This document shows, in pieces, positions 26,250-39,436 of a stretch of 50,739 nt of DNA. The translations under genes were made by a program, and so were the position numbers. Numbering within the stretch: position 1 is the first letter of the stretch; the number at the start of each line of letters is the position of its first letter. Source of the DNA: a virus (taxonomy: Duplodnaviria > Caudoviricetes); IMG/VR virus record IMGVR_UViG_3300034065_000046, positions 1 through 50,739 of that record, one strand, 5' to 3'. Below the pieces are notes generated by a model, which saw only the letters and a list, made by a program, of their open reading frames with translations, did not search any database and was not told the DNA's origin.

Positions 26250-26278
26250 TTGCATTTTTATTATAATGTTGTTATAAT
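26250..26278 (+). promoter_or_regulatory. Sigma70-type promoter
   Basis: TTGCAT-N17-TATAAT with TGn. Confidence 0.75.
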
Positions 26279-26281
26279 TAC

Positions 26282-26388
26282 GACTTGGAAATTTGTATAT
26301 CGTGCATTGTAGGCATTAAATCCAAGTTTCTTGATAAATTAGGCTCGATTATCCATTACTACAATTAATGGAATATTGGGCTTTTTTT
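26282..26388 (+). ncRNA. Kissing-loop leader/terminator element A
   Basis: Hairpin loop ATTGTAG (26306-12) is complementary to terminator loop CTACAAT (26359-65); T tract follows. Confidence 0.65.
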
Positions 26389-26402
26389 ATTTGGAGTTCA
26401 AA

Positions 26403-26516
26403 ATGTGTCCATATTTTCAATATGAATTACTCAAAGCTAAAATCCAAGCTCAAAACTATTCTCCACAGGTATATCAACAAAAACTAAAACAAATTGCTGA
26501 AAGATTAGGAATATAG
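26403..26516 (+). CDS. Small phage protein (37 aa)
   Basis: GGAG RBS; YELLKAKI...YQQKLKQIAERLGI. Confidence 0.6.
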   Translation: MCPYFQYELLKAKIQAQNYSPQVYQQKLKQIAERLGI

Positions 26517-26566
26517 TTATCTTTATCTTTATCTTATGCTATAATATTATCTTTAAAGGAAAAGCA

Positions 26567-26800
26567 ATGCAACAACCAGTGACAATTAATGCACTCGAAC
26601 AAAGAATATTAGACTTTTTACCTTCATATTGTGAAACAACAGCGCAAGAAATAGGTGATGGAATAGGGGTAGCTAGGGTGACTATTAATAAATATTTAAA
26701 AATATTATCTGAAAAAAAGCTAATTACCCGCGAAATTATAACTTTGATTGGAGGAACTACTAAAGACCGCAGATGGATATCTTTGATTACTAAATTATAG
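26567..26800 (+). CDS. Winged-HTH DNA-binding protein
   Basis: TAQEIGDGIGVARVTINKYLKIL..KKLI; TGcTATAAT upstream. Confidence 0.75.
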   Translation: MQQPVTINALEQRILDFLPSYCETTAQEIGDGIGVARVTINKYLKILSEKKLITREIITLIGGTTKDRRWISLITKL

Positions 26801-26809
26801 GAAAATAAT

Positions 26810-36266: not shown

Positions 36267-37842
36267 GCGGATACTTAAGCTAAAGCCTATTTATACTGCA
36301 CTGCAACGCTACATTGTATTATGGGGCGGTCGTGGTGGCGGTAAGAGTTTTGAAGTAGCCCGATGCATTATCATACGTTTAATCCAATCAGACAGACCTT
36401 TACGGGTACTATGCTGCCGAGAAATACAAAAATCAATTAAAGAATCAGTACATGCCCTACTTGTAGCGGTAATCTATGACCTCAATGTTCAAGCCTATTT
36501 CGATATTACCAATAATGCCATCAAGACTAAAAAGCGATATAACGGTAAGCACCCATCAGAGATATTTTTCGAGGGCTTACACAATAACATTTATGAAATC
36601 AAATCATTAGCGTTTATAAACTTATGCTGGGTAGAGGAAGCTGGAAATGTCAGTCAAGAGAGTTGGGATATTTTACTGCCGACTATTCGTGAAGAGTGTA
36701 GCCAAGTAATAATCACATTTAACCCTACTGAAGAAACTGCGCCTACATATCAAATGTTTGTAATTGCCGATATGCCGGAAGAAGAACGGTTACTAATAAA
36801 TGTAAACTTCTGGGATAATCCATATATGAGCCAGACCCTATATAGGGAGATGGAGCGTATGAAACGGACTGACTATGAGCGTTATCTGCATTATTGGGAG
36901 GGTAAACCACTCCGGTTATCAAATGCGGCTATCTTTAAAGATAAGTTTGTAGTCAGACCTATAGAGATAACCAGCTTATGTAATATTGACTATATTGATA
37001 ATATGAGAATTGATTATCACTATGGTATGGATTTTGGATTTAGTACCGACCCATTTGCTTGCCTAGAAACATTTATACATAAAGGTAAGATATATATTAC
37101 CAAAGAATTGTATCATCATGGCTTAGAAAATACAGATATAGTACCATCGCTAAAACTTATCATGCCTGATATGGTAGATAAAAGGCGTAAAGTATATGCC
37201 GATGGTAGTAGTCCATCTACGATTAGCCAATTAGCCAAACCACAATTACACCCCAGTGGTTACAAAATAGAATCACTTAATATTATGCCAGCGGTAAAAG
37301 GTGCTGGAAGTGTAGAGGAAGGGATTAACTGGTTACGCAGCTTTACCGAGATAGTGGTATCACCGGAATGTACTAATACTATTTGGGAGTTAAATAACTA
37401 TAAATACGTAGTTGATAAAGTTACGGGTGTTATAATACCGAAACCAGAGGACAAGAATAATCACGCTTGTATAACAGGCGATACACTGATACATACCGAG
37501 TATGGATTAGAGCCAATAAGAGATTTAATGTACACTATTGGTAAGGCGTGGAGCTATAATATACAAACAAATAAGCGTGAATTAAACTATTACGGCAATG
37601 TAACCATTACTAATAATCATGCTCAGATATATGAAATATTACTGATAGATGGCAGAACGATAAAAGCTACCGCAGACCACCCGATTTTAACTGATAAAGG
37701 ATGGAAGCCAGTCATTGAATTGACAGAAGATGATAGTATAATACAAATTAATTGCCCTAATGCTATGGGGTATGGTAAAGTAAGGCTTTGGGGGGAATTA
37801 TGGAAAATTATCAAACGTTTAACGGTAAGAAATTCAGGCTAG
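36250..37842 (+). CDS. terL: Terminase large subunit N-extein (406 aa) fused to split intein N-fragment
   Basis: GGRGGGKS, WVEEA, FNP and GMDFG motifs, then KNNHA|CITGDTLI intein start. Confidence 0.92.
   Translation: MEVRRKRILKLKPIYTALQRYIVLWGGRGGGKSFEVARCIIIRLIQSDRPLRVLCCREIQKSIKESVHALLVAVIYDLNVQAYFDITNNAIKTKKRYNGKHPSEIFFEGLHNNIYEIKSLAFINLCWVEEAGNVSQESWDILLPTIREECSQVIITFNPTEETAPTYQMFVIADMPEEERLLINVNFWDNPYMSQTLYREMERMKRTDYERYLHYWEGKPLRLSNAAIFKDKFVVRPIEITSLCNIDYIDNMRIDYHYGMDFGFSTDPFACLETFIHKGKIYITKELYHHGLENTDIVPSLKLIMPDMVDKRRKVYADGSSPSTISQLAKPQLHPSGYKIESLNIMPAVKGAGSVEEGINWLRSFTEIVVSPECTNTIWELNNYKYVVDKVTGVIIPKPEDKNNHACITGDTLIHTEYGLEPIRDLMYTIGKAWSYNIQTNKRELNYYGNVTITNNHAQIYEILLIDGRTIKATADHPILTDKGWKPVIELTEDDSIIQINCPNAMGYGKVRLWGELWKIIKRLTVRNSG
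37468..37839 (+). mobile_element. Split intein N-fragment (IntN, 124 aa)
   Basis: Block A CITGDTLIHT; block B IKATADHPILT; GWKPV.EL. Confidence 0.9.
37752..37781 (+). promoter_or_regulatory. Candidate internal promoter for the HNH gene
   Basis: TTGCCC-N18-TAAAGT with TGn, about 18 nt before ATG 37800. Confidence 0.4.
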
Positions 37843-38417
37843 ATAAAAATACTGGTTATTATTTGAATAGTACATTACACGAGCGGATACACCGATATAT
37901 TTGGAGTTATTATAATGGTGATATACCAGAGGGTTATCATGTTCACCATATAGACCACAATAAAAGTAATAATGATATAAGTAATTTGCAATTGTTACTA
38001 GGGCATGAACATATTGCACTGCATACTACTGAGTATCACCAGATTAATAGAGAATCGGTGTTACAGCACTTAGAAACCATTAGACCGCTAACAAAAGAAT
38101 GGCATAGTAGTAAATCAGGTATTGATTGGCATAAACAGCATTACGAATATACGAAAGCTAAATTACATCTAAGAATAGATATGGTATGTAAAAATTGTGG
38201 TAGCTTGTTTCAAGGATTACCAAACCATTCTATAGTATGCAGCAATAAATGCAAGTCAGCATTAAGGCGTAAGTCAGGTATTGATAATATAAAGGTAGAT
38301 TGTTATGTATGCGGTATGGAATTTATTAAAAACAAGTATTCTAAACATCTTACGTGTTCACAAAAATGCGGACATCAGGTTAATAAAAATACAACGGATA
38401 ACCAAACGAGGATTTGA
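37800..38417 (+). CDS. Free-standing HNH homing endonuclease with C-terminal zinc ribbons
   Basis: HRYIW...IPEGYHVHHIDHNKSNNDISNL; two CxxC...CSxKC modules; G-rich RBS; out of frame with the intein. Confidence 0.9.
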   Translation: MENYQTFNGKKFRLDKNTGYYLNSTLHERIHRYIWSYYNGDIPEGYHVHHIDHNKSNNDISNLQLLLGHEHIALHTTEYHQINRESVLQHLETIRPLTKEWHSSKSGIDWHKQHYEYTKAKLHLRIDMVCKNCGSLFQGLPNHSIVCSNKCKSALRRKSGIDNIKVDCYVCGMEFIKNKYSKHLTCSQKCGHQVNKNTTDNQTRI

Positions 38418-38604
38418 ACCAGTCTATAATATGTTAGTAGAGAATACACATAATTATGCAGTAGAGGGCGGTTTAATCATTAGTAACTGTGATGCCCTAC
38501 GATATGCATTTAATGAAGAAATAATTGCAGAGCGTGGTTGTGCTGTAGCAGTTTATAGACCACCAGTAGCACCGGCAAGACGTAGGAGCGCAATATATGC
38601 TTAA
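38305..38604 (+). CDS. terL: Split intein C-fragment (to 38487) fused to the TerL C-extein (38 aa)
   Basis: IKIQRI...VYNMLVENTHNY...IISN|CDALRY; AAGGT RBS 8 nt upstream; in-frame stops at 38290 and 38296. Confidence 0.88.
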   Translation: MYAVWNLLKTSILNILRVHKNADIRLIKIQRITKRGFEPVYNMLVENTHNYAVEGGLIISNCDALRYAFNEEIIAERGCAVAVYRPPVAPARRRSAIYA

Positions 38605-39298
38605 AAATTACCATGAATATAGTAAAAAACTAGAAGATAAGTATAATACTGATTTACTGGAGAAATACAGCCCTCTATTATTGTTACTCAACGATATTAA
38701 AAAGCTAAACAAGAGTAATATCAACGATGTAATAGTATCTTGGAAGAAAGAATATTGGCAGGATATAGAAGCAATTACCCTGTTAAATATCCAGAAAATA
38801 GATAAATATACAAACACACTTATTACCGGAGATGAAACAGAACGTCAGCAGTCAGTGTTAATCGATGGTATGGTATTGCAAAATATGCGGCTACTAGACC
38901 AGACTACCGAAAACATTAGGCAACGATTTACAGAGCTAGGTGTATTAGAAAATGGCGCTTATTCTGCTGAGTTAGCCACCAAGAACGTACAAGGTATAGT
39001 AAATAGCGTAGAAAAGAGCCTAGACCTATTTGCTGTGATGTCTACTATGGGAAATATGCGAGAGCTTATCTTTGGCAATGCCGAATCTGTAGGTTGGGAG
39101 CAGTATCAGTGGAGAACACAGCGAGATTCAAGAGTAAGACCTACACACGCAGCTATGGATAATCGATGGATAAATATAGATGACTTAACTCCGCAGCCTG
39201 CCGGATGTCCGGTATCTCAAGATTATAACTGCCGCTGTTGGGCAATTAACTTCCGTAAGCGTGGAAGTAATAGTAATTGGATATATTTACACAATTAG
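38597..39298 (+). CDS. Head morphogenesis/minor capsid protein (SPP1 gp7/Mu gpF-like)
   Basis: YQWRTQRDSRVRPTH...YNCRC. Confidence 0.9.
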   Translation: MLKNYHEYSKKLEDKYNTDLLEKYSPLLLLLNDIKKLNKSNINDVIVSWKKEYWQDIEAITLLNIQKIDKYTNTLITGDETERQQSVLIDGMVLQNMRLLDQTTENIRQRFTELGVLENGAYSAELATKNVQGIVNSVEKSLDLFAVMSTMGNMRELIFGNAESVGWEQYQWRTQRDSRVRPTHAAMDNRWINIDDLTPQPAGCPVSQDYNCRCWAINFRKRGSNSNWIYLHN

Positions 39299-39315
39299 TA
39301 AATTTGTGTTATACT
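39286..39315 (+). promoter_or_regulatory. Extended -10 promoter
   Basis: TTTACA-N18-TATACT with TGn. Confidence 0.6.
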
Positions 39316-39327
39316 ACTGGTATAAAT

Positions 39328-39436
39328 GAGCTATTTGTGTTATCGTCTTAGTGGAGATTAAAACACAAATAGTTCTAGGCTCACTAAAAGCTCAATTCTA
39401 CTCTTGCCACTACAGGATTAGAATATGAGCTTTTTT
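39328..39436 (+). ncRNA. Kissing-loop leader/terminator element C
   Basis: 14-bp stem with loop TAGTGG (39349-54) complementary to terminator loop CCACTA (39407-12); T tract follows. Confidence 0.65.

What the first reader, a model, noticed from the sequence alone, without database searches (positions are those of the whole stretch)
26250..39436. Three sequence-unrelated promoter leaders share a kissing-loop terminator architecture
Seen: after promoters at 26250, 29885 and 39286 there is hairpin 1, a short linker, then hairpin 2 ending in a T tract. In each case the two apical loops are exact complements: ATTGTAG/CTACAAT, CGTGAA/TTCACG, TAGTGG/CCACTA. Hairpin 1 also keeps a similar sub-apical motif (TATCG...TTAAA in A and C; TGCG...CTAAA in B). 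Loop sequences differ while pairing is kept, which is covariation within one genome. Inference: a cis-regulatory RNA family (attenuator or antitermination switch) or a set of 100-125 nt small RNAs with mutually specific loop codes. I cannot assign it to a named family; P1 C4, P4 CI and HK022 put RNAs are only loose analogues.
Basis: partly seen in the sequence, partly recalled or inferred. Interest (0 to 1): 0.85.

Follow-up and report, generated by a model that had tools for sequence, protein, structure and literature searches.

The report
Kissing-loop terminator leaders in a phage
Three short leader RNAs in this phage each pair the tip of a first hairpin with the tip of a transcription terminator, a design that recurs with different pairing words in many other phages and probably sets how much transcription runs on into replication and later genes.

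Summary
At 26282-26388, 29916-30018 and 39328-39436 (+ strand) a promoter-like site is followed by hairpin 1, a linker and a strong terminator hairpin with a T6-7 tract. The two apical loops are exact reverse complements.

The design is not private to this genome. Phage contigs that share the helicase gene carry the same architecture with other loop words, mostly behind Bacteroidota-type promoters. In an unbiased test, 19 of 188 strong terminators had a loop-loop run of 6 nt or more, against 1.06% for permuted partners. Covariance models built on the nested stems alone recovered new members with complementary loops. Orthologous leaders in two cultured Flavobacterium phages differ by compensatory changes.

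No Rfam family matches. The closest known design is the guanidine-IV riboswitch, but these loops are hypervariable and the downstream genes serve replication.

Best reading (about 0.5): cis-acting leader attenuators in which the kissing loop tunes, and probably opposes, termination. Function is untested because no RNA data exist. I judge it a real, apparently undescribed phage RNA motif.

The parts
26250..26278 (+). Element A promoter-like site: TTGCAT (26250-26255), 17-nt spacer, TATAAT (26273-26278)
   Evidence: Read. Only 3 of 6 matches in the -35 hexamer, so the scan does not list it. That it is a promoter is inference.
26282..26328 (+). Element A hairpin 1. Outer stem 26282-26289 with 26321-26328. 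Internal loop with TATCG (26298-26302) and TTAAA (26316-26320). Inner stem TGC/GCA. Apical loop ATTGTAG (26306-26312).
   Evidence: hairpin folded alone: -8.7 kcal/mol.
26343..26388 (+). Element A hairpin 2, an intrinsic terminator (26343-26381, -13.6 kcal/mol). Apical loop CTACAAT (26359-26365). T7 tract 26382-26388.
26403..26516 (+). 37-aa ORF that starts 14 nt after the T tract of A, with GGAG upstream. The replication module follows: initiator-like 26810-27646, DnaB-like 27637-28467, primase 28467-29354, ParB-like nuclease 29347-29871.
   Evidence: (phrog_2465, E 2.4e-5).
29885..29913 (+). Element B promoter-like site: TTGCAA, 17-nt spacer, TACAAT
   Evidence: Read; 9 of 12 matches by my count. 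That it is a promoter is inference.
29916..29968 (+). Element B hairpin 1. Main stem 29927-29932 with 29953-29958. Inner stem GCA/TGC. Apical loop CGTGAA (29940-29945). CTAAA on the 3' side. A possible extra outer stem, 29916-29922 with 29963-29968, would leave only 3 nt before hairpin 2.
   Evidence: -16.9 kcal/mol.
29972..30018 (+). Element B hairpin 2, an intrinsic terminator (core 29974-30012, -11.3 kcal/mol). Loop TTCACG (29990-29995). T6 tract 30013-30018.
30032..31399 (+). Helicase gene (455 aa) that starts 13 nt after the T tract of B, leaving no room for a separate promoter. A DNA methyltransferase follows at 31410-32435.
   Evidence: phrog_62, E 3.5e-48; phrog_67, E 2.1e-36.
39286..39315 (+). 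Element C promoter-like site: TTTACA, 18-nt spacer, TATACT, with TG before the -10 hexamer
   Evidence: 10 of 12 matches.
39328..39375 (+). Element C hairpin 1: a 14-bp outer stem, TATCG (39341-39345) and TTAAA (39358-39362), inner stem, apical loop TAGTGG (39349-39354).
   Evidence: -14.8 kcal/mol, z -4.9.
39390..39436 (+). Element C hairpin 2, an intrinsic terminator (39390-39430, -15.9 kcal/mol). Loop CCACTA (39407-39412). T6 tract 39431-39436.
39437..39786 (+). Non-coding stretch after C. It ends in a perfect sigma-70-type promoter (39725-39752, 12 of 12 matches plus TG) ahead of the structural genes (39787 onward; portal at 43841-45394).

Best explanation
A, B and C are promoter-proximal leader RNAs of about 100-120 nt that head three successive rightward transcription units: replication genes; helicase, methylase and terminase; and structural genes.

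Each leader folds into a 5' hairpin and an intrinsic terminator. The two apical loops form a 6-7 bp kissing helix, which is an H-type pseudoknot.

I propose that they act in cis as transcription attenuators. RNA polymerase starting at the local promoter meets the terminator within about 100 nt, and the kissing helix decides what fraction reads through.

The kissing helix most likely opposes completion of the terminator stem. [quoted passage not shown] Here the helix is made of ordinary Watson-Crick pairs and needs no ligand.

Shown: the structures, the loop complementarity, its covariation, and the position in front of genes.

Inferred: that the promoters fire, that the terminators terminate, the direction of the effect, and what modulates it.
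For: **Architecture and chance.** (joint p about 1e-7).

**Strand.** The + strand folds better than the - strand for A (-28.9 against -13.8 kcal/mol) and C (-42.4 against -35.9). The T tracts and the genes lie on the + strand.

**Leader position.**
- A start codon lies 14 nt (A) and 13 nt (B) after the T tract.
- In relatives, 20 of 24 listed instances have an ORF start within 35 nt of hairpin 2.
- 12 of 17 have the motif TAnnTTTG within 35 nt before hairpin 1, against 239 of 8000 random windows. I recall this motif as the Bacteroidota -7 promoter box.

**Recurrence beyond chance.**
- 19 of 188 strong terminators have a loop-loop run of 6 nt or more, against 1.06% for permuted partners (p 2.7e-13).
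- 9 of 188 have a run of 7 nt or more, against 0.23%.
- The stringent scan gave 19 of 423 for the reverse complement, against 4, 3 and 3 for the reversed, complemented and identical words.

**Covariation not selected for.**
- Models of the nested stems alone found L097:7447-7536 and L031:6025-6108, both with complementary loops.
- On alignment A8 (8 sequences) the kissing helix is 95.8% paired, and 3 of its 6 pairs change on both sides.

**Orthologue compensation.**
- L050 against L060.
- Flavobacterium phage hattifnatt9-1 against snusmum6-1, with two adjacent positions changed on both sides.

**Downstream genes.** They are replication and recombination genes: helicase, DnaB-like helicase, initiators, RecT-like protein and HNH endonuclease. 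5 of 10 scanned were named, 1 matched only unknown-function families and 4 had no hit.

**Direction of the effect.**
- Kissing-helix energy and terminator energy correlate (Spearman 0.69, n = 20; partial correlation on local GC 0.68, n = 19). A balance between opponents would give this.
- In guanidine-IV the kissing loop hinders the complete terminator stem (passages of PMC11611296; PMC9788692).
- Structures close upstream of a terminator suppress termination (abstract and sections 7 and 9 of bioRxiv 10.64898/2026.06.17.733018).
Against: - There is no expression or termination evidence of any kind. No RNA run holds the phage.
- Promoter calls in the window are consensus matches in AT-rich DNA and are not enriched over shuffles. 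A's -35 hexamer is poor.
- C is not followed by an ORF. 350 nt of non-coding DNA and a separate perfect promoter lie before the next gene. That fits a stand-alone small RNA better than a leader.
- Fully paired 6-7 nt loops are sterically compatible with both hairpins being formed (established for other kissing complexes; recalled, not tested here). With linkers of 15-34 nt, the crude span-to-reach ratio is below 1 in 17 of 19 elements. Mutual exclusion of kissing helix and terminator is therefore not demonstrated.
- The energy correlation could reflect shared selection for stability, and it ignores relatedness among the elements.
- Polymerase arriving from upstream also transcribes hairpin 1. 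A constitutive built-in antiterminator leaves the purpose of the terminator unexplained.
- The subfamily model R2 does not score the window's elements, and no direct homologues of A, B or C were found.
Confidence: 0.5

Rival explanations
1. The terminated products are the point. Their private loop words would keep the three species apart. Downstream genes would be expressed by leak-through or from upstream.
For: - Each unit is a complete promoter-to-terminator cassette.
- C has no ORF behind it.
- The distance between the two loop words is nearly constant, 46-63 nt in most instances, as for an RNA of fixed size.
- Cognate loop pairs are more stable than non-cognate pairs.
- For the window's long hairpin 1, the linkers of 14-17 nt read look too short for a straight coaxial stack. 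That would favour pairing between molecules. This is my geometric estimate only.
Against: - In 20 of 24 instances an ORF starts within 35 nt of hairpin 2. In B there is no room for another promoter, so the downstream genes depend on read-through.
- No conserved single-stranded seed is visible. Linkers are A-rich but not conserved.
- No trans target was found. The best extra match, 11 nt at 26144-26154 complementary to C's hairpin 2, is near chance expectation.
Confidence: 0.2
2. The kissing helix helps termination. Hairpin 2 has a short GC-rich base carrying a long irregular upper part. Clamping its tip to hairpin 1 organises the upper part so that the base closes in time. That would give an efficient insulator between transcription units, with read-through requiring a phage factor that unlocks hairpin 1.
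For: - In many relatives the apical stem of hairpin 2 has only 3 bp and is flanked by internal loops. It should be marginal without support.
- The elements sit at the borders of functional modules in the window and in hattifnatt9-1.
Against: - The positive, not negative, correlation between kissing-helix and terminator stability.
- The solved logic of the one known relative in architecture, guanidine-IV, runs the other way.
- No recognisable antiterminator protein appears among the 50 window ORFs scanned, though many small ORFs have no family.
Confidence: 0.17
3. The element works after transcription. It would be a structured 5' untranslated region that shields the 5' end of the mRNA from decay and leaves the U-rich stretch before the start codon open for ribosomes. 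The terminator-like look would be secondary.
For: - Hairpin 1 starts 2-15 nt after the TAnnTTTG box in 11 of the 12 relatives that have it, and 26 nt after it in the twelfth. It is therefore close to the 5' end.
- The start codon follows the U tract directly.
- Some relatives have interrupted U tracts.
Against: - In the window the GC-rich stem base followed by T6-7 is a textbook intrinsic terminator.
- A 5' hairpin alone would protect the end. This does not explain why its loop must pair with the terminator loop.
Confidence: 0.1
4. Chance, or a DNA-level feature such as a protein site or recombination site, rather than RNA.
For: - The first loose scan did not exceed its controls: 59 of 423 against 35-57 of 423.
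- Element B folds equally well on both strands.
Against: - The permutation and control tests, the covariation and the compensatory changes.
- The words differ between elements, so one protein cannot read them all.
- Orientation is always that of the downstream gene.
Confidence: 0.02

Closest known systems
Guanidine-IV riboswitch (mepA motif) and its Gd4v variant
   Same: - Two hairpins joined by a loop-loop pseudoknot (kissing loop).
- The 3' hairpin is a Rho-independent terminator followed by U residues and then the start codon.
- The kissing loop and the complete terminator stem compete through the length of the linker.

Source: passages of PMC9788692 and PMC11611296.
   Different: [quoted passage not shown] Here the loop words differ in almost every element and are plain Watson-Crick complements of 6-9 nt.
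- Here the genes downstream are phage replication genes, not transporters.
- Here there are several copies per genome.
- No Rfam model scores A, B or C even at E <= 10.
'Tug-of-war' transcriptional riboswitches (Bushhouse, Fu and Lucks, bioRxiv 2026)
   Same: - A folded RNA upstream of an intrinsic terminator, with no sequence overlap between the two.
- It can suppress termination in a sequence-independent way.

Source: abstract and sections 7 and 9.
   Different: - That effect needs a very short spacer and fades as the spacer grows. Here the spacer is 15-34 nt.
- Here the upstream hairpin is tied to the terminator by the loop-loop helix instead.
- No ligand-binding aptamer is present.
HK022 put RNAs
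   Same: - Phage RNA elements of about 70 nt with two stem-loops.
- Placed just after early promoters and present in more than one copy per genome.
- Act in cis on RNA polymerase.

Source: passages of PMC9378689.
   Different: - put is a V-shaped pair of stem-loops with a triplex and no kissing loop. The words 'kissing' and 'pseudoknot' each occur 0 times in that paper.
- Its second hairpin is not a terminator.
- It acts on terminators far downstream.
Antisense-RNA kissing control of plasmid replication genes (ColE1 RNA I/II, R1 CopA/CopT, pT181 and pIP501 attenuation); recalled, not read here
   Same: - Fully complementary hairpin loops of 6-7 nt as the recognition step.
- Placed in the leader of replication genes.
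- In pT181 and pIP501 the outcome is formation of a terminator.
   Different: - Those act between two RNAs made from opposite strands.
- Here both loops lie on one transcript, and no counter-transcript promoter or terminator was seen. That was eye inspection, not a systematic test.
phi29 packaging RNA (pRNA); recalled, not read here
   Same: Two loops of one RNA are complementary and covary between relatives, while the sequence otherwise drifts.
   Different: - pRNA loops pair between molecules to build a ring on the packaging motor of phi29-like phages.
- This phage has an ordinary large terminase (36250-37842).
- The elements carry terminators and sit in front of genes.

Membership tests
Guanidine-IV riboswitch (mepA motif) | Two hairpins, the 3' one an intrinsic terminator, linked by a loop-loop pseudoknot | tested here: met
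   Definition taken from passages of PMC9788692.
Guanidine-IV riboswitch (mepA motif) | [quoted passage not shown] | tested here: not met
   The loop words differ between A, B and C and across about 25 relatives. In alignment A8, 3 of the 6 kissing pairs change on both sides.
Guanidine-IV riboswitch (mepA motif) | Match to the curated covariance model | tested here: not met
   No such family appears among the hits at E <= 10 for A, B or C, and nothing reaches gathering score. That Rfam holds a model for this class is recalled, not checked.
Guanidine-IV riboswitch (mepA motif) | Sits upstream of guanidine-export or detoxification genes | tested here: not met
   Downstream are a 37-aa ORF plus the replication module, and a helicase. 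In relatives they are replication and recombination genes.
HK022 put RNA | Two stem-loops forming a V shape with a triplex; acts on distant terminators through the beta' zinc-binding domain | not testable with these tools
   Only position after promoters and copy number resemble it. The second hairpin here is itself a terminator, and the loops kiss, which put does not.
P1 C4 / P4 CI type antisense RNAs and other curated phage RNAs | Match to an Rfam model | tested here: not met
   For ten related loci the only hit was a tRNA.
Kissing-loop terminator leaders of Bacteroidota-type phages (subfamily modelled here as R2) | Score with the nested-stem covariance model R2 | tested here: not met
   The window was among the 72 sources and gave no match at E <= 5. 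The window's elements share the architecture but not demonstrable homology.
Kissing-loop terminator leaders of Bacteroidota-type phages (subfamily modelled here as R2) | Promoter-proximal hairpin whose loop is the Watson-Crick complement of the apical loop of a terminator about 50 nt downstream; A-rich stretch (UAAA) after the hairpin's 3' arm; gene start just behind | tested here: met
   - Loop-to-loop distance is 53, 50 and 58 nt in A, B and C.
- TTAAA or CTAAA follows the inner stem.
- A gene start follows A and B but not C.
phi29-type pRNA | Belongs to a phi29-like packaging system without a classical large terminase | tested here: not met
   Terminase_3 plus Terminase_3C at 36250-37842 (E 1.5e-40).

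The most novel reading that the evidence does not exclude
The leaders form a ligand-free, addressable control system. Each transcription unit writes a private 6-9 nt code into hairpin 1 that matches only its own terminator loop.

Both loops sit on one sense RNA. Terminated leader molecules that pile up as the phage genome replicates could therefore kiss nascent leaders in trans and flip their termination decision.

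That would give three orthogonal dosage-sensing or timing circuits. They would be the sense-RNA counterpart of plasmid antisense copy-number control, with no protein or metabolite needed.
Probability: 0.1. Interest if true: 0.92.

Novelty: new variant of a known kind. Interest (0 to 1): 0.8.

Why it matters
If the reading is right, many phages control the start of their replication and later gene blocks with a small self-contained RNA device. Its key contact is a freely re-writable Watson-Crick word. That differs from riboswitches, which have fixed ligand pockets, and from protein antiterminators.

- It would add a widespread RNA class to phage gene regulation, including Bacteroidota phages, for which almost nothing is known.
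- It would give a natural test bed for how tertiary contacts to a terminator loop steer intrinsic termination.
- It would offer orthogonal, programmable terminator switches for engineering.
- Cultured Flavobacterium phages (hattifnatt9-1, snusmum6-1) carry three such leaders each, so the question can be tested at the bench directly.

Tried and rejected
**Steps that led nowhere or were set aside**

- **First loose scan for loop partners.** It gave 62 of 469 terminators. After removing duplicates it did not beat its controls: reverse complement 59 of 423, reversed 47, complemented 35, identical 57. I replaced it with stricter criteria and with a test that ignores complementarity when choosing hairpins. 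The strict scan misses B (3-bp inner stem). The one search test misses C (its minimum-energy fold pairs part of the loop).
- **The 19 positives.** Some are not leader-like (L068, L047, L049, and the second hit in L050). About 2 are expected by chance.
- **Rfam.** Nothing at gathering score in the window. Only a tRNA in ten related loci. Only weak, unrelated hits at E <= 10.
- **RNA evidence.** No RNA holder is listed for this phage. 13 DNA runs, labelled peat metagenome, hold it or part of it.
- **Natural variants.** Laying contigs of four runs on 26150-39500 showed no variant inside the elements among the rows shown.
- **Direct homologues of A and C.**
  - The initiator-like protein has 1 relative in viral contigs and 4 short ones in metagenome contigs. 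One of them (L088) has a 7-nt upstream word complementary to the loop of a long hairpin, but not in a clear hairpin loop.
  - Relatives of the 38597-39298 protein (6 loci) carry other genes downstream and no C-like element in the two I read.
20 had some downstream complement, and none looked like the element.
- **MAFFT alignments.** The alignment of 27 elements (A1), the alignment of 8 elements (A2) and the alignment of the three window elements (A5) are structurally wrong. I did not use them for counts.
- **Model R1.** At E < 1 the + strand non-seed hits were L027, L097:7447, L018 and L034, and all 4 have complementary loops. The other 4 non-seed hits below E 1 lie on the - strand: 2 are reverse complements of true elements, 1 adjoins one, and L031:6489 showed no kissing pair. 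The 5 weaker hits I inspected (L010 twice, L075 twice, L021:5824) showed no kissing pair.
- **Model R2.** Of 6 + strand non-seed hits, 5 have complementary loops (L031, L034, L065, L063, L067). The sixth (L021:3979, E 3.6) showed none by eye. The 5 - strand hits were discarded.
- **R2 in bacterial genomes.** In 121 genomes of the family of G001 there were 3 matches at E <= 0.01. One was G001 itself. The other two are plain terminators without a partner. The subfamily was therefore not found in the chromosomes searched, with a model of limited reach.
- **Trans targets.** The only long extra match in the window is 11 nt at 26144-26154, complementary to 39402-39412. My rough estimate is that this is about what chance gives over six sites. 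hattifnatt9-1 and snusmum6-1 share a second 10-nt copy of the helicase-leader loop word. Neither is used as evidence.
- **Geometry.** The linker-length estimate does not decide whether kissing helix and full terminator can coexist. The negative correlation seen there mostly restates the constant loop-to-loop distance.
- **Other checks.** No tRNA or tmRNA in the window. No antiterminator-like family among the 50 window ORFs scanned.
- **Literature.** Searches gave no description of this motif in the listings and abstracts returned. The catalogue of PMC10690425 (passages read) may list such loci in supplements that I could not see.

Full report
**What the window is**

The window is a complete 50,739-bp virus contig with a 127-nt terminal direct repeat. 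GC content is about 36%. Its layout is:
- Structural genes at both ends. The portal gene is at 43841-45394.
- A leftward block, about 16000-25900, with a Sak4-like annealing protein and an SSB.
- A long rightward block.

The rightward block runs in this order:
- A small HTH protein (25980-26249).
- A 37-aa ORF, an initiator-like protein, a DnaB-like helicase, a primase and a ParB-like nuclease (26403-29871).
- A helicase and a DNA methyltransferase (30032-32435).
- Many small ORFs, a small-terminase-like protein, an exonuclease, the large terminase (36250-37842), an HNH protein and a head-morphogenesis-like protein ending at 39298.
- The structural genes.

The host is unknown. Sigma-70-type promoters, Shine-Dalgarno-like sites, and an initiator whose nearest named relatives are in Vibrio, Acinetobacter and Shewanella phages point to a proteobacterium. 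DNA runs that hold the phage are labelled peat metagenome.

**The observation**

Elements A, B and C stand exactly at the three joints of the rightward block.

Each element has these parts in order:
- A promoter-like site.
- Hairpin 1, a long irregular hairpin with a 3-bp inner stem capped by a 6-7 nt loop.
- A linker.
- Hairpin 2, with a GC-rich base directly followed by T6-7.

The two loops are perfect reverse complements: ATTGTAG/CTACAAT, CGTGAA/TTCACG and TAGTGG/CCACTA.

RNAfold supports both hairpins, with z-scores of -3.3 to -7.1. The + strand folds better than the - strand for A and C and equally well for B. Among 11 terminator candidates in the window, only these three have such a partner. 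The joint chance probability is about 1e-7 even with generous offsets. Cognate loop duplexes score -7.3 to -8.4 kcal/mol, against -1.1 to -5.7 for non-cognate pairs.

The three elements are not unrelated. They share TATCG or TGCG before the inner stem and TTAAA or CTAAA after it, and GCTC...GAGC-T6 at the terminator base. They look like diverged paralogues whose loops changed in step.

The promoters are the weakest part of the observation.

**Relatives**

The helicase behind B has more than 598 relatives in IMG/VR at 72-76% identity. Reading the DNA in front of them showed many leaders with the same plan but different words. Examples are GGTGAAG/CTTCACC, CTGGAAC/GTTCCAG, GTAGAGG/CCTCTAC and GTGGACG/CGTCCAC.

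These leaders usually lie behind TAnnTTTG, which I recall as the Bacteroidota -7 promoter box. It occurs within 35 nt before hairpin 1 in 12 of 17 curated elements. The background is 239 of 8000 random windows.

A loose scan was no better than its controls. A stricter scan gave 19 of 423 for the reverse complement, against 4, 3 and 3 for three control transformations.

I then ran a test that picks hairpins from minimum-energy folds without looking at complementarity. It gave 19 of 188 strong terminators with a run of 6 nt or more, against 1.06% for permuted partners. For runs of 7 nt or more it gave 9 of 188 against 0.23%.

About 25 distinct elements were collected. Several contigs carry two or three, each with its own word. 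The cultured Flavobacterium phage hattifnatt9-1 has three: before the helicase gp034, the endonuclease gp041, and gp044.

**Covariation**

MAFFT could not align the elements. I therefore built a covariance model from three alignable members using only the nested stems (R1), and then a second model from its hits (R2).

Neither model knows about the loop-loop pairing. Even so, the new members they found carry complementary loops:
- L097:7447-7536 has GGGCAG/CTGCCC.
- L031:6025-6108 has ATGCAG/CTGCAT.

On the 8-sequence alignment A8:
- The kissing helix is 95.8% paired.
- Of its 6 pairs, 3 change on both sides and 2 are invariant. The last departs only through one misaligned row.
- The whole structure is 93.4% paired, against 60.4% in shuffles (0 of 500 reach it) and at most 45% when the partners are slid by 1-3 columns.

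Two orthologous comparisons show clean compensation:
- L050 against L060.
- The gp044 leader of hattifnatt9-1 (GTGAGACG/CGTCTCAC) against the matching leader of snusmum6-1 (GTGGAACG/CGTTCCAC).

It therefore fails to refute.

One caveat applies. R2 does not score the window's own elements, and no direct homologues of A, B or C were found. The window belongs to the group by architecture, not by demonstrated homology.

**Anatomy in common**

- Hairpin 1 lies at or near the 5' end of the transcript.
- The stretch right after its 3' arm is A-rich, often AUUAAA. The window's TTAAA or CTAAA occupies the same place. This is what loop 3 of an H-type pseudoknot looks like where it lies in a minor groove. 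That is inference.
- The two loop words are 46-63 nt apart in most instances. Linkers are 15-34 nt.
- One subfamily has AGUA...GAA around the 3-bp apical stem of hairpin 2, a loop-E-like signature. This comes from my reading, and the motif name is recalled.
- The start codon follows hairpin 2 by 35 nt or less in 20 of 24 listed instances.
- Of 10 downstream proteins scanned, 5 are named replication or recombination proteins, 1 matches only unknown-function families and 4 have no hit.

**Mechanism**

No classical alternative pairing (antiterminator stem) is visible, so control must come through the tertiary contact.

The guanidine-IV riboswitch has the same plan, and there the kissing loop hinders the complete terminator stem. 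Lengthening of the stem shortens the linker and clashes with the loop contact. A recent preprint shows that structures held close to a terminator suppress termination in general.

In line with an antagonistic balance, kissing-helix energy and terminator energy rise together across elements. The Spearman correlation is 0.69 (n = 20), and the partial correlation controlling local GC is 0.68 (n = 19). This is suggestive only.

I therefore favour a cis-acting attenuator in which the kissing helix counteracts termination.

What modulates it is unknown. Candidates are polymerase speed, Mg2+, a structure-specific protein, or RNA in trans. Polymerase from upstream also transcribes hairpin 1, which any model must explain. 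Element C, with no ORF behind it, keeps the small-RNA reading alive.

**Comparison and novelty**

It is not a member of any Rfam family. It fails the defining features of guanidine-IV other than the architecture. It is unlike put and unlike pRNA (a large terminase is present).

Six literature searches returned no description of it in their listings and abstracts. A 2023 catalogue of phage RNA candidates may contain such loci in supplements I could not open.

I rate it a new variant of a known kind: a terminator leader governed by a kissing loop. What is new is the hypervariable Watson-Crick code, the several copies per genome, and the restriction to phages in what I searched. There were 0 bona fide hits in 120 other genomes of the family of G001.

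**Verdict**

- Observation: confirmed.
- RNA family with a covarying kissing loop: well supported.
- Regulatory function and its direction: inferred.
- Confidence in the cis-attenuator reading: 0.5.
- Interest: 0.8.

Noticed in passing
window 1-127 and 50613-50739: An exact 127-nt direct repeat at the two ends of the contig. This points to a circular or terminally redundant genome closed by the assembler.
   Followed up: partly
window 26144-26154: TAGTGGCAAGA lies inside the HTH ORF just upstream of element A. It is an 11-nt complement of the 5' apical arm plus loop of C's terminator (39402-39412). That is about what chance allows over the six sites searched, but an early transcript could in principle invade C's terminator.
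   Followed up: partly
L126:6170-6185 and L254:3283-3297: Flavobacterium phages hattifnatt9-1 and snusmum6-1 carry a second 10-nt copy of the hairpin-1 loop word of their helicase leader. It sits in the gp020-gp021 intergenic region of the early rightward operon.
   Followed up: no
window 39437-39786: A 350-nt non-coding stretch after element C. It holds a GGGG/CCCC-rich segment around 39630-39665 and a perfect extended -10 sigma-70 promoter (39725-39752) before the structural genes. It could hold a packaging site or another RNA.
   Followed up: no
window 36250-37842: The large terminase has a sub-threshold Intein_splicing match at residues 422-498 (E 1.3e-6, below Pfam's cut-off). An HNH endonuclease ORF follows (37788-38417).
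   Followed up: no
L027:12750-12835, L034:6000-6080, L050:6642-6728, L097:7447-7536, L031:6025-6108: One subfamily of the leaders has AGUA on the 5' side and GAA on the 3' side of the 3-bp apical stem of the terminator, which looks like a loop-E or bulged-G motif.
   Followed up: no
related loci (one search list): The distance between the two loop words is held near 50 nt (46-63) however it is divided between linker and terminator arm. Kissing-helix and terminator stabilities correlate (rho 0.69).
   Followed up: partly
L254:10799-10894: The annotated 'hypothetical protein' gp042 of snusmum6-1 overlaps the promoter box and hairpin 1 of a leader, so it may be a spurious gene call.
   Followed up: no
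L096:2160-2320, L088:860-1045, L021/L073 helicase leaders: In some relatives the upstream partner of the terminator loop (8-10 nt) does not sit in an obvious hairpin loop. It lies in a single-stranded 5' segment, giving a simpler pseudoknot form of the same idea.
   Followed up: no
genome-contig loci L092-L125: The helicase-methylase module occurs at 42-73% identity on contigs binned to very different phyla. In the high-GC proteobacterial ones the helicase gene has no such leader.
   Followed up: partly
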